Source of the DNA: a virus
Virus record (IMG/VR): IMGVR_UViG_3300031578_000010
Span: 69,428-90,431 of that record
Reading direction: 5' to 3' (one strand)
Length of the DNA: 21,004 bases
How positions within the stretch are numbered: the first letter of the stretch is position 1; the number at the start of each line of letters is the position of its first letter. The notes beneath the pieces were generated by a model. The model was not told the origin of the DNA, searched no databases, and saw nothing but the letters and a program-made list of their open reading frames with translations. Of the stretch, positions 367-18,157 are shown piece by piece. The position numbers and the translations under genes were made by a program.

Positions 367-825
367 TTACTTATTCCCCTTGCTCCCCTTGCCCGCCAGC
401 CGTTTGATGATCCGGATTACGTTCTGGATTCCGTTCCGAACGGAATCCTTCTCCGCGCAAAGGGCGTGGACGCGACTCTCCAGGCGGGCGATCTCGCTTT
501 CGATTTCCAGGTTCGCCGCCTCCAGTTTTTTCAGGGCGTCCGTCAGGCGATCGGCGGCCCTTCCGTGCAGGCGCATCGGCAAAGTTGCGATTTTCTTTTC
601 CTTACGTGGGATCTTTTCCCTTTTCACCACCATGTTCGCCGGATCCTCCATCACCCGCAGTTTCCCGAACTTCTTTTCGTCCCGGTAGTCGGCGTACAGG
701 TCGAGGGCGTCTGCCCTGTGCCCCTCCTCGTTCAGTTGCAGGATCATCCTCCGCAACTGCCGCCTCTCCTTCTTCTCCACCAAGGTGCGATCCTTCTGGT
801 TCTGGTTTGTCTTTTCCTTTTTCAT
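367..825 (-). CDS. Hypothetical basic, coiled-coil protein (152 aa)
   Basis: SD GAAAGGGAATACCG before the ATG. Heptad-like C-terminal helix (LKKLEAANLEIESEIARLESRVHAL). Same strand as all neighbours. Confidence 0.8.
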   Translation of the reverse strand: MKKEKTNQNQKDRTLVEKKERRQLRRMILQLNEEGHRADALDLYADYRDEKKFGKLRVMEDPANMVVKREKIPRKEKKIATLPMRLHGRAADRLTDALKKLEAANLEIESEIARLESRVHALCAEKDSVRNGIQNVIRIIKRLAGKGSKGNK

Positions 826-1317: not shown

Positions 1318-1355
1318 GATATTTCCTTTCAATACCAATGTCAATGCCACATTAA

Positions 1356-1634
1356 TTATTCGAACTGGCTGAACGTTGCAAGGTTACTAACGTGCAAGGC
1401 GGCATTAAAGGTATCTCTCGCAACTTGCTCGGCCAATCTCAAAATATAGCCAGCGTATTTACTCGCCGCCTGCAAGTCTGTTTTCTGCATCGCTAAAAGT
1501 ATCTCGTTGAATTCCGCTATTGCTTCCAGTTTGCAGGCATTTAGTGCTGCCTGAAACGCTTCTCGCCTTGAATTATCGGCGGCATCCCTTGCCTGAAAGC
1601 TCTGGTAACGAAATTTTTCGCTTACCTTTGACAT
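1356..1634 (-). CDS. Hypothetical Ala-rich helical protein (92 aa, MSKVSEK...)
   Basis: ORF 1356..1709. The ATG at 1634 has TTGAAAGGAAATACC upstream, and the longer start lies inside a hairpin. Confidence 0.75.
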   Translation of the reverse strand: MSKVSEKFRYQSFQARDAADNSRREAFQAALNACKLEAIAEFNEILLAMQKTDLQAASKYAGYILRLAEQVARDTFNAALHVSNLATFSQFE

Positions 1635-1687
1635 GGTATTTCCTTTCAAATGTATGGGTTTGAATGTCCGGGCTTGGTTTATTCTGA

Positions 1688-1719
1688 TAGGGCATGGATA
1701 ATTCTTCACCCATGCCCTA
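1688..1719 (-). repeat. Conserved intergenic hairpin, copy 3 (14-bp stem, AGAA loop)
   Basis: Minus strand TAGGGCATGGGTGA-AGAA-TTATCCATGCCCTA. Same stem length and GYGA/TTRY top as copies 1 and 2. Confidence 0.7.
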
Positions 1720-1720
1720 A

Positions 1721-2392
1721 TATCTTAAACTTACGTTTCCCGCCATTTGTCCGGCAACCTCACGGTTGTTAACCAAAGAATAAGCGCTCTTTATTTCCGC
1801 TTTTATTTTGGCGAATTGCGTCAGCAACGCCAAAAGCGGAATATATTTTTAGCATTATTATTGGGCGGGCAGAAAACGGGTTGAAACTCGGCGTTTCCGG
1901 TTACTGGATATTCCAGCCCTCCCGGCTAACCCATAGGTTAGGCTTCCGGTTTTTGGTTCAAATACGGGAACCGAAAAACCCTAAAGGGCGTGGCATTAGG
2001 CGGGCGTTTTTGGTAGGCGAAATATAAACAACCATGAACCGCTTGTATTGCAAGCATGTTTCTTTCGCGCTTTCGCGTTTTCGATCTGAGGTAGAAACAT
2101 TCTTTCCTGCAAACTCGCGGTCCGGCTGGCTGGGAATATTTGCCATCGCCGGCGTCCACCTCTCTCCCCTTGTATTCGCGTTGCGGTCCGTTATTCCTCG
2201 CGTTCCTGTCCTGGCAGGCTCCAGGTTGCGCTCAGGCGTTACCTCGCGGCGGATCTCCCGGCGTTACAAGTTTCGCAAGTCGCGTCGCCCCCGTATTTGG
2301 GTTTGAGGCTCGTCCTTAATTCCTGTAACTGCCTCCCGGGCTAATCCGGTTTCGCGTTTCCGCAACCAAGTGTCAAAGATCAGGTTTCCCTA
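1721..2392 (-). ncRNA. Candidate large structured non-coding RNA or 5' leader (~670 nt)
   Basis: No credible CDS. It lies immediately downstream of the promoter motif at 2391-2430 and contains more than 10 hairpins, several GNRA tetraloops on the minus strand and one long-range helix (2266-2279 with 2106-2118). Boundaries are approximate. Confidence 0.6.
2371..2392 (-). promoter_or_regulatory. boxB-like hairpin plus boxA-like antitermination site
   Basis: Minus strand TAGG-GAAA-CCTG runs directly into GATCTTTGACA, which resembles rrn boxA (E. coli TGCTCTTTAACA). It sits at the predicted transcript 5' end. Confidence 0.6.
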
Positions 2393-2430
2393 CCTCTATA
2401 TACGCTATATCAGGGAAAAGTTAACAAAAA
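2391..2430 (-). promoter_or_regulatory. Putative promoter, copy 1: TTTTTGTTAA-N15-GCGTATATAnAGGTA
   Basis: The same bipartite motif with identical spacing occurs at 5960-5999. Both copies are at the head of a gene module. Confidence 0.7.
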
Positions 2431-5959: not shown

Positions 5960-5999
5960 TACCTATATATACGCGAATTTCCCGAAGTTTTAACAAAAA
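5960..5999 (-). promoter_or_regulatory. Putative promoter, copy 2, upstream of the replication module
   Basis: Minus strand TTTTTGTTAA-AACTTCGGGAAATTC-GCGTATATATAGGTA matches 2391-2430 in both conserved blocks and in spacer length. Confidence 0.7.
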
Positions 6000-6036
6000 A
6001 ATAACCCCTTTTAAGCCTTGATGGCTAAAGGGGTTA
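5995..6036 (-). terminator. Intrinsic terminator after the 98-aa holin-like gene
   Basis: Stem TAACCCCTTT/AAAGGGGTTA with inner AGCC/GGCT, followed on the minus strand by a T-run that overlaps the promoter's upstream block. Confidence 0.75.
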
Positions 6037-6078
6037 CATTAAGGGGTTCCCTCAGATTTGCGGTCGCGGGTTCCCTCC

Positions 6079-6414: not shown

Positions 6415-6464
6415 AAAAAAACGGGGATTTTCCCCTAAAAAATAGGGGTTTTATCCCCGTTTTT
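6415..6464. terminator. Intrinsic, possibly bidirectional terminator
   Basis: AAAAACGGGGAT...CCCCTA...TAGGGG...ATCCCCGTTTTT long hairpin with A/T runs on both sides. Confidence 0.75.
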
Positions 6465-6558
6465 CCGCTATTTTTCTCGCTTTACCAAAGAGGGGAGGGT
6501 CCAAGGAAGGGATGTACCTGTTCATGCAAGTTTGCATCCTCATAGGCGCCAGCGCCAT

Positions 6559-16923: not shown

Positions 16924-17323
16924 TATTAAAATCTTTCAGCATTCCTTCTACTATTGGGGCCCGCCTTCGAACTCGATCCCGCACTTTAACTAACATAAAC
17001 CTTTTTTTATCCAAATCTGAGATATCCGTTTTATCCATCATTTCAAGAATCTCGTCTCTCCATTCTTCAAGTAACTGTAGAACAGCCCCCGGAATTTTGG
17101 CAATTCTTAATTTATCAAGAGCAACCTGAACCCCTTGTAATTTGTCTTTTAAATTGGCTTCCCGTAACTGAATATGCCTAATTCTCTGATTTAATTTCCT
17201 AATTCTATCATCCAACTGTTTAAGCAGAAGGGGGGAGGATTCCTCCTCCATCTGCTTTAACAAGCAGATAAACTTAGCGAGTTCTGTTTCTTCCAAGTCC
17301 TGTAAATAATTTGTTAATTCCAT
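16913..17323 (-). CDS. Hypothetical coiled-coil protein (136 aa)
   Basis: L/E/K/R-rich heptads, SD AAAGGGGA, located between spike and gp25. Confidence 0.75.
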   Translation of the reverse strand: MELTNYLQDLEETELAKFICLLKQMEEESSPLLLKQLDDRIRKLNQRIRHIQLREANLKDKLQGVQVALDKLRIAKIPGAVLQLLEEWRDEILEMMDKTDISDLDKKRFMLVKVRDRVRRRAPIVEGMLKDFNNGL

Positions 17324-17341
17324 ATTAGATCCCCTTTCTTT

Positions 17342-18157
17342 CTACTCGCCCTTCACTTTTTGCGTTTCATCTGTTGCAGGAACAAATACAGCTGGAGCAA
17401 GCGGTGGGCCGCTTGGACTTCCGACAGTTACCGGATGAGTATGAAAATTATATTTATTTAACCCAAACGATCCGAGTATCAATCCCTGAACGGCAGTTTT
17501 TCCAAGTTTTATAGTAGCCGCTTCTATTATCCTCGTTATAGACTTCTCCTCCCAACTCCCTTCCGCCGTCACAAATATTGAACCTAATATATGATTTAAT
17601 ATATCTCCTGCGACAGATTTCCACTCATCCGAATTTACTTTTATAACACATTTTCCATCCGATCTCATTTCAATAAATGTTCCAAGGGGATGATATAACT
17701 GGATCCTTTCTTTTCCTGGCGTATTATCAAACTCTATTAAAATCCCACCAGCAAATTTAATCATTTGATTAAAAGGATATTGAGCGGCAAAATTACTGGA
17801 AGGTTCGTTCTTAGTTGTTCCTAAAGCAGTTTGAAAACTATCTGTTCCTTTTATACTCTCGACGCCATCATCTTCCCCACGGCTGCGGCTTGGCGCTTCA
17901 GTTAATCCGCCAGGAGCTCCATAAAAACAACCCGTCCAAATAGGTCTATCCGGATCTCCGCCTATGAATTCAATCCATACTTTAGAATTTAATGGCGGCA
18001 ATTTAAATTCGCCAGGATATATATAAGAAGGTTCTGCCCAAGTTGTTGATATAGTATCAAATCCGACCTCTGGAACTATCGCCTTTATTCTTCCTCCGCT
18101 TTCAGGATCAGAGATATCTACAACTTTTCCTCTATATTTCCCATAATATTTAGTCAT
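17342..18157 (-). CDS. Baseplate spike, gpV/gp5 OB-fold family
   Basis: KYYGKYRGKVVDISDPESGGRIKAIVP...LPPLNSKVWIEFIGGDPDRPIWTG; IEFDNTPGKERIQLYH; C-terminal HTH. ATG 18157 has SD GAGG. Confidence 0.9.
   Translation of the reverse strand: MTKYYGKYRGKVVDISDPESGGRIKAIVPEVGFDTISTTWAEPSYIYPGEFKLPPLNSKVWIEFIGGDPDRPIWTGCFYGAPGGLTEAPSRSRGEDDGVESIKGTDSFQTALGTTKNEPSSNFAAQYPFNQMIKFAGGILIEFDNTPGKERIQLYHPLGTFIEMRSDGKCVIKVNSDEWKSVAGDILNHILGSIFVTAEGSWEEKSITRIIEAATIKLGKTAVQGLILGSFGLNKYNFHTHPVTVGSPSGPPLAPAVFVPATDETQKVKGE

What the first reader, a model, noticed from the sequence alone, without database searches (positions are those of the whole stretch)
1721..2392. Candidate novel ~670-nt structured phage RNA at the head of the early operon
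Seen: the largest gene-free stretch in an otherwise tightly packed genome, GC-richer than the replication genes and starting right after a repeated promoter motif. Hairpins in + coordinates: 2381-2392 and 2354-2363 (GAAA loops), 2305-2309/2331-2335, 2210-2225, 2122-2152, 2056-2063/2093-2100 (enclosing CGC-GAAA-GCG), 2041-2055, 1948-1980, 1926-1941, 1904-1916, 1795-1841 and 1755-1768 (GUGA loop). A long-range helix CUUGCGAAACUUGU (2279-2266) with GCGAGUUUGCAGG (2118-2106) closes a ~170-nt multibranch domain. The GNRA loops and G-U pairs favour the minus strand. I see no tRNA, tmRNA, RNase P or intron signatures. Established: phages carry large ornate RNAs (GOLLD, ROOL) and RNA antiterminators (HK022 put). 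Inference: a large ncRNA or antiterminator leader, possibly of an undescribed class.
Basis: partly seen in the sequence, partly recalled or inferred. Interest (0 to 1): 0.85.

Follow-up and report, generated by a model that had tools for sequence, protein, structure and literature searches.

The report
New boxA-led large phage RNA family
The gene-free gap in this uncultured soil phage encodes a real, intricately folded non-coding RNA of about 650 bases, kept by compensatory mutations in five distantly related phages and always starting with the signal that bacteria use to transcribe their ribosomal RNA; it matches no catalogued RNA family and its job is unknown.

Summary
The RNA is real. Window 2391-1734 (minus strand) has four homologues in related myoviruses (41-51% identical). 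One was found after the model was built and scores 58 bits (E 3e-13). All five share, in order: an rRNA-type boxA, a 5' domain closed by helix P1 with a loop-E-like motif, a long-range helix Pa, an H-type pseudoknot plus hairpin (64/65 cells paired, 7 of 13 pairs with two-sided changes), a three-way junction and a 3' domain. No reading frame is conserved. There is no Rfam hit, and no similarity to eight GOLLD loci or to the phiEco32 early RNA. Best reading (0.55): a stand-alone large ornate RNA, made from the early operon, whose boxA recruits host Nus factors to protect and fold it. Main rival: a cis antiterminator (0.22). Expression and function are untested; no RNA run holds it. The scan has noted boxA-led large early RNAs in other phages before; the one I could test is not homologous.

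The parts
2391..2430 (-). Promoter-like motif of the early operon (twin at 5960-5999, ahead of the helicase)
   Evidence: Repeat D3. Only two good copies in the 90-kb genome. The same motif heads the early operon of relative L003 at 7480. Function inferred.
2382..2391 (-). Short GAAA-capped 5' hairpin directly before boxA; probable first nucleotides of the transcript
   Evidence: B. subtilis rrn leaders also have a small hairpin then boxA (PMC13753749). Relatives have other hairpins here; L001 and L065 share a roughly 110-nt leader instead.
2371..2382 (-). rRNA-type boxA (NusB/S10 site)
   Evidence: 11 of 13 bases match the B. subtilis consensus; the L065 copy matches 11 of 12 of the E. coli consensus. 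Present at the 5' end of all five members and of the duplicate cassette in L001/L066. Only one other match on the minus strand of the genome.
2180..2366 (-). 5' domain: P1 (2366-2360 with 2186-2180), loop-E-like internal loop (2353-2349 opposite 2195-2192), P2 (2348-2343 with 2255-2250)
   Evidence: With sequence-only anchors P1 forms in all five members (empirical p 0.001-0.023 each) with different base pairs. The loop-E assignment is by motif only.
1983..2171 (-). Central variable domain closed by long-range helix Pa (2171-2166 with 1988-1983)
   Evidence: Pa has 5-6 of 6 pairs in each member, with unrelated sequences; in out-of-sample L065, 7 of 8. The interior is not alignable.
1946..1981 (-). 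H-type pseudoknot, the most conserved sequence (S1 1981-1979 with 1968-1966; S2 1974-1971 with 1949-1946; U-rich loop 1, A-rich loop 3)
   Evidence: S2 is 100% paired, with 3 of 4 pairs changed on both sides. S1 is only 3 bp, 14/15 cells paired, one pair changed on both sides.
1897..1941 (-). Hairpin HP1 (1941-1926) and three-way junction (1925-1923 with 1899-1897, inner hairpin 1916-1904)
   Evidence: HP1 is 100% paired with 3 two-sided changes. The junction helix changes CG to UA at two pairs in L004 and has one mismatch in L065.
1734..1879 (-). 3' domain: long irregular stem with conserved core helix P3a (1867-1864 with 1744-1741), A-rich bulge and variable distal hairpins (1841-1795, 1768-1755)
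   Evidence: In the window the energy model prefers a shifted register (1879-1869 with 1744-1734). The 1674-1823 tile has z -4.3.
1677..1730 (-). Intercistronic hairpin just after the RNA, one of three with a shared apical motif (1708, 342, 32): candidate RNase III-type processing site or protein-binding (boxB-like) hairpin
   Evidence: Inverted repeat I10. Motif scan finds related hairpins flanking the RNA or early genes in L003, L065 and L066. Role inferred.
1356..1647 (-). First early gene with strong SD (start 1634, not the 1709 GTG)
   Evidence: 86% identical homologue in L001. No PHROG match.

Best explanation
A stand-alone large structured non-coding RNA (about 650 nt here, 660-750 nt plus optional leader in relatives), made as part of the early polycistronic transcript. 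Shown: conserved multi-domain secondary structure with a pseudoknot core, non-coding status, strand, boxA at the 5' end of every member. Inferred: (1) host RNA polymerase starts near 2391; (2) boxA loads host NusB/S10 and the rRNA-type antitermination complex, so that about 700 untranslated bases escape Rho and fold co-transcriptionally, and polymerase continues into the early genes; (3) flanking hairpins let a double-strand nuclease release the RNA; (4) the folded RNA acts in trans early in infection as a scaffold, oligomer or binding partner, like GOLLD/ROOL. Its target is unknown. That it is a real structured RNA: about 0.93. This mechanism as a whole: 0.55.
For: Five members at 41-51% identity keep the same helix order with compensatory changes. 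L065 was found after the model was built. All five fold better on the sense strand (z -2.2 to -3.4 against -0.1 to -1.9). boxA and the RNA occur together: both are absent from the early module of the sister clade. The RNA heads the operon in four phages but follows four early genes in L003, so it behaves as a cassette. No U-run follows its 3' domain in any member. boxA is established to load NusB:S10 and block Rho on untranslated RNA (PMC12360218, PMC13753749). The size and motif density far exceed known cis antiterminators (own knowledge: put about 70 nt, EAR about 125 nt).
Against: No transcript evidence either way. Only five distinct sequences, and the long-range helices were aligned by hand: a loose test without sequence anchors was not significant (product 0.057), and the anchors of the strict test were chosen after seeing all five. 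The consensus helices cost 6-21 kcal/mol over the MFE (14 in the window; L004 not comparable because of an indexing slip in that run) and have low pair probability in the window without pseudoknot or tertiary terms. No intrinsic terminator or proven cleavage site defines a free RNA. No partner protein identified.
Confidence: 0.55

Rival explanations
1. Cis-acting processive antiterminator leader: boxA plus the folded RNA (and perhaps the repeated boxB-like hairpins with a small basic early protein) modifies RNA polymerase for read-through of the early operon, as HK022 put, lambda nut/N or EAR do.
For: Location at or near the start of the early operon. boxA in all members. A second boxA plus 5'-domain cassette lies 2.4 kb further down the same operon in L001/L066. 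Repeated hairpins have purine-rich apical loops resembling lambda boxB (resemblance from memory).
Against: The early region has no excess of terminators (10 found against 10.8 expected). Early genes carry strong SD sequences. In L003 four genes precede the element. The sister clade runs a similar early module without it. boxA alone suffices for the rrn complex, so the 650-nt fold would be unexplained.
Confidence: 0.22
2. Decoy or sponge: an abundant rRNA-mimicking transcript that titrates host Nus factors, ribosomal proteins or an RNA-targeting defence nuclease or toxin (the pseudoknot acting like a type III antitoxin mimic).
For: Early timing, an rrn-like start (hairpin then boxA), loop-E-like and T-loop-like motifs, a compact pseudoknot.
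Against: No rRNA, ToxI, AbiQ or CptI match in Rfam even at E 10. The pseudoknot is single-copy, not an array. No consistent leader-trailer processing stem like that of rRNA.
Confidence: 0.12
3. A catalytic RNA or mobile element (new ribozyme, or intron-like).
For: Size, complexity and a conserved pseudoknot with invariant unpaired bases. A partial duplicate in L001.
Against: No intron, RNase P or ribozyme family hit. It interrupts no gene. No reverse transcriptase or homing endonuclease family among the genome's ORFs scanned. It stays at one locus in one clade.
Confidence: 0.06
4. Not an RNA: short genes, or a DNA-level site (origin, packaging or promoter region) whose hairpins are incidental.
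For: ORFs of 59-90 codons overlap it on both strands. Gene callers place ORFs in the homologous gaps. It lies next to primase.
Against: No frame is open across the core in all five members on either strand, and no SD-led start lies inside. The ORFs have no PHROG match and differ between relatives. 20 of 203 curated pairs are G-U, folding is strand-asymmetric, and pairings span 170-240 nt.
Confidence: 0.05

Closest known systems
GOLLD and ROOL large ornate RNAs (PMC12286853, PMC5737381)
   Same: Phage-encoded, 0.6-0.8 kb, multi-junction, pseudoknotted, GNRA-rich, with a conserved core and variable domains; function unknown.
   Different: No Rfam match; my models do not hit eight GOLLD loci. Not beside tRNA genes (the genome's only such gene, a tmRNA, is about 30 kb away). 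Sits in the early operon behind boxA.
rrn operon leader (5' hairpin plus boxA; NusB/S10/NusA/NusG/SuhB complex; PMC13753749, PMC12360218)
   Same: Near-consensus boxA within about 10 nt of the inferred start, after a small hairpin, ahead of a long untranslated structured RNA.
   Different: The downstream RNA is not rRNA. No consistent leader-trailer stem. The hairpin before boxA is not conserved.
HK022 put, lambda nut, Bacillus EAR (cis antiterminator RNAs; own knowledge)
   Same: Early-operon position, boxA, repeated hairpins with purine-rich loops.
   Different: 5-10 times larger. Hairpin precedes boxA where they are adjacent. No N-like protein shown and no terminators in evident need of read-through.
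boxA-led early structured RNA of phiEco32-like coliphages (earlier scan notes e1-340927, e1-227822; unpublished)
   Same: Same design: early promoter, boxA, about 0.8 kb untranslated folded RNA, then early genes. I confirmed several boxA copies in EU330206.
   Different: No sequence or structure similarity to this family. One boxA per cassette here, several there.

Membership tests
GOLLD | Conserved 3' domain matching the Rfam covariance model | tested here: not met
   cmscan of four members (window, L010, L009, L004) and of L065 at E 2-10 gave no GOLLD hit.
GOLLD | Similarity to GOLLD 5' domains (outside the Rfam model) | tested here: not met
   Model R2 and a full-length family HMM against eight phage GOLLD loci: best 13.6 bits on the wrong strand. 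A 10-bit resemblance in phiCbK recurs in none of the other seven.
GOLLD/ROOL | Usually next to tRNA genes | tested here: not met
   No tRNA in the genome or the loci; one tmRNA far away.
GOLLD/ROOL | Homo-oligomeric nanocage | not testable with these tools
   Needs mass photometry or cryo-EM.
ROOL, OLE, raiA, HEARO, IMES and other Rfam large RNAs | Covariance-model hit | tested here: not met
rrn-type boxA | Match to the 12-13-nt consensus | tested here: met
   11/13 to the B. subtilis consensus (window); 11/12 to the E. coli consensus (L065); conserved in position in all members.
rrn-type boxA | Binds NusB/S10 and blocks Rho | not testable with these tools
   Host unknown; needs a binding or reporter assay.
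put/nut/EAR antiterminator RNAs | Downstream terminators that are read through | tested here: inconclusive
   No excess of intrinsic terminators in the early region. Rho sites cannot be scanned.
put/nut/EAR antiterminator RNAs | Sequence or structure match to the known elements | tested here: not met
   No Rfam cis-regulatory hit above noise.
tRNA/tmRNA | Cloverleaf or tRNA-like domain with tag frame | tested here: not met
   ARAGORN finds nothing in the element. No conserved frame after the pseudoknot.
Group I/II intron, RNase P, small ribozymes | Catalytic core motifs or Rfam hit; interrupted gene | tested here: not met
   Flanking genes are intact.

The most novel reading that the evidence does not exclude
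This is one of several independently evolved giant phage RNAs that are built like a miniature rRNA operon: loaded onto the host's Nus/rrn machinery by boxA, cut out of the early transcript, and acting in the first minutes of infection as an RNA-only machine (oligomeric cage, catalyst, or inhibitor of host transcription, translation or defence) with a new fold and a new function.
Probability: 0.2. Interest if true: 0.9.

Novelty: new variant of a known kind. Interest (0 to 1): 0.68.

Why it matters
Only a few bacterial or phage RNAs of this size and complexity are known, and the function of GOLLD and ROOL is a long-standing open question. This family adds a new fold with a defined minimal core and natural deletion variants (the window member lacks a hairpin that three relatives have; L001 carries a 5'-domain-only copy). 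The strict pairing of boxA with the RNA gives a testable handle: phages may route a non-coding RNA through the host's rRNA transcription complex. Limits: five sequences, unknown host, no expression data.

Tried and rejected
Homologue search: blastn against 50,697 phage records gave nothing. Exact and degenerate DNA patterns in viral, metagenome and GTDB contigs returned only known members plus chance matches that failed the model. Relatives were reached only through primase and helicase. The representative-protein search gave only distant primases. An early-gene search gave one identical protein. The sister clade (primase 42% identical) lacks RNA and boxA in the parts held; its contigs are partial. 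Expression: no RNA holder listed, which is no evidence; laying DNA contigs showed no variants inside the element. Similarity to tmRNA pk1 and the preQ1-I aptamer is general H-type topology only (no resume frame, no ligand-pairing C; by eye). GOLLD 5'-domain resemblance in phiCbK rejected. Leader-trailer stem not better than shuffles in any member. A loose chance test of P1 plus Pa was not significant; only the anchored test is. Searches were input errors or refusals; one search used wrong S1 columns and is replaced; the L004 P1 row is mis-indexed and corrected. Host not determined. R-scape could not be run.

Full report
CONTEXT. The window is the last 21 kb of a 90,431-nt virus record held by soil metagenome DNA runs. 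It is a myovirus: baseplate and tail genes, DnaB helicase, uracil-DNA glycosylase and primase in the window; sheath, tube, RecA, Pol III alpha, ligase, an NYN nuclease and a tmRNA elsewhere. All genes are on the minus strand. After the primase stop (2584) come a promoter-like block (2430-2391, twin at 5999-5960), the flagged gap, and a run of short SD-led genes without database matches, typical of an early module.

OBSERVATION. The gap, its GC content and the twelve hairpins are there. Energy alone is only suggestive: z -2.65 for 1721-2392 and -3.4 for boxA to the 3' end against -1.6 for the opposite strand. Most 150-nt tiles are unremarkable against a genome in which 11% of tiles have z below -2. 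Rfam gives nothing. The case therefore rests on comparison.

HOMOLOGUES. Neighbouring proteins led to four related phages: L001, L003 and L004 and L065. The RNAs are 41-51% identical in a multiple alignment. A covariance model built from the first four found L065 at 58 bits, E about 3e-13, and one copy per complete genome. Pattern scans of three large collections added no member. In four phages the RNA follows the primase and promoter directly; in L003 four early genes come first. L001 has a second, truncated cassette (boxA plus most of the 5' domain) 2.4 kb downstream. A sister clade has neither RNA nor boxA at the head of its early module.

STRUCTURE. (a) boxA, 2382-2371, begins every member. 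It matches the B. subtilis rrn consensus at 11 of 13 bases; L065 matches the E. coli consensus at 11 of 12 (PMC13753749). (b) 5' domain: two sequence motifs, each unique within its search range in every member, mark the strands of a loop-E-like internal loop. The segments outside them pair as P1 in all five (-9.8 to -17.3 kcal/mol; empirical p 0.001-0.023 each), with different base pairs. P2 follows. Three relatives carry a T-loop-like hairpin here that the window lacks (by eye). (c) Pa joins the end of the 5' domain to the base of the pseudoknot across a variable 170-210-nt domain: 5-6 of 6 pairs in each member with unrelated sequences. (d) Pseudoknot and hairpin HP1: 64 of 65 cells paired, 7 of 13 pairs with two-sided changes, covariation score 0.615 against 0.29 in shuffles (0/500) and at most 0.29 in slid controls (for the MAFFT alignment of four). 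S1 is only 3 bp and is the weakest part. (e) A three-way junction with a double compensatory change in L004 and one mismatch in L065. (f) A 3' domain with a conserved 4-5-bp core. Over eight curated helices, 203 of 206 cells pair and 20 are G-U. Caveats: five sequences; long-range helices curated by hand; anchors chosen after seeing the data; an unanchored test was not significant; the energy model does not favour P1, P2, S1, S2 or P3a in the window.

NOT CODING. No frame is stop-free across the core in all five members on either strand, and no SD-led start lies in any member, whereas the early genes have strong SD sequences.

MECHANISM. Established: boxA in nascent RNA loads NusB:S10 and builds the rrn antitermination complex, which blocks Rho on untranslated RNA; boxA also precedes CRISPR arrays and suhB (PMC12360218, PMC13753749). 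Here boxA and the long untranslated RNA are present or absent together. The simplest inference is that boxA serves the RNA, protecting and folding it and carrying polymerase on to the early genes. No U-run follows the 3' domain, so a free RNA would need processing. Irregular hairpins with a shared apical motif flank it and recur between early genes (1708, 342, 32); these are candidate RNase III-type sites, or protein-binding hairpins. What the folded RNA does is not shown. I favour a trans-acting ornate RNA (0.55) over a cis antiterminator (0.22): it is far larger than needed, is not fixed to the promoter, and the operon has no terminator excess. The duplicated cassette in L001 and the boxB-like loops keep the rival alive. 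Decoy (0.12), ribozyme (0.06) and non-RNA readings (0.05) follow.

COMPARISON. It looks like GOLLD and ROOL in size, context and complexity (PMC12286853, PMC5737381), but fails the membership tests: no Rfam hit, no similarity to eight GOLLD loci including their 5' halves, no tRNA neighbours. Four literature searches aimed at such an RNA found no description; the library is incomplete. Earlier scan notes report boxA-led large early RNAs in phiEco32-like, cyanobacterial, gut and soil phages. I confirmed the boxA copies in phiEco32 and found no homology to this family; the others could not be compared.

VERDICT. A real, uncatalogued family of large structured phage RNAs with an rRNA-type start signal: a new variant of a known kind. 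Interest 0.68; 0.9 if it proves to be a new RNA machine (probability 0.2).

Noticed in passing
G000 C1:40179-40563 (minus); L074 3120-3486: Both complete phages encode a tmRNA with a related, unusually long tag peptide of 23 residues ending in ARMVA; a possible host clue.
   Followed up: partly
L001 6810-7085 (L066 15870-16150): Second, truncated copy of the element: motif hairpin, boxA and most of the 5' domain, without the P1 3' strand or pseudoknot, followed directly by a gene.
   Followed up: partly
window 1708, 342, 32; L003 8727; L065 4608 and 5982; L066 15450, 17823, 18133: Repeated intercistronic hairpins of the early operon with a shared purine-rich apical motif; processing sites or boxB-like protein sites.
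   Followed up: partly
L001 4380-4490 and L065 3690-3790: An extra conserved leader of about 110 nt upstream of boxA, absent from the window.
   Followed up: partly
window 1321-1727 against L001 6038-6482: Early genes and the 1677-1730 hairpin are 86-96% identical to L001 but in a different order, while the RNAs and primases are under 50% identical: recent exchange of early cassettes. Contigs in two soil runs show the other order.
   Followed up: partly
G000 C1:32293-34154: 1.9-kb, 31% GC stretch without ORFs of 70 aa or more; candidate origin, terminal region or second non-coding locus.
   Followed up: no
G000 C1:41000-57000 (L071/L072 ORFs): NYN-domain ribonuclease, three DNA methylases, a PLP-dependent enzyme, RecA, RuvC and SbcCD-like genes; the NYN protein is a possible RNA-processing partner.
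   Followed up: no
window 5992-6064 and 6415-6465: Strong hairpins with U tails (terminator-like) around the conserved 98-aa gene, separating the structural module from the helicase promoter.
   Followed up: no
window 17191-17344: Weak Rfam SIB match (27 bits, below gathering) over a complementary stretch between baseplate genes; probably chance.
   Followed up: no
window 367-825 and 1135-1320: Small basic early proteins with arginine/lysine-rich stretches, conserved in L001 (the second in two copies); candidates for an RNA-binding partner.
   Followed up: no
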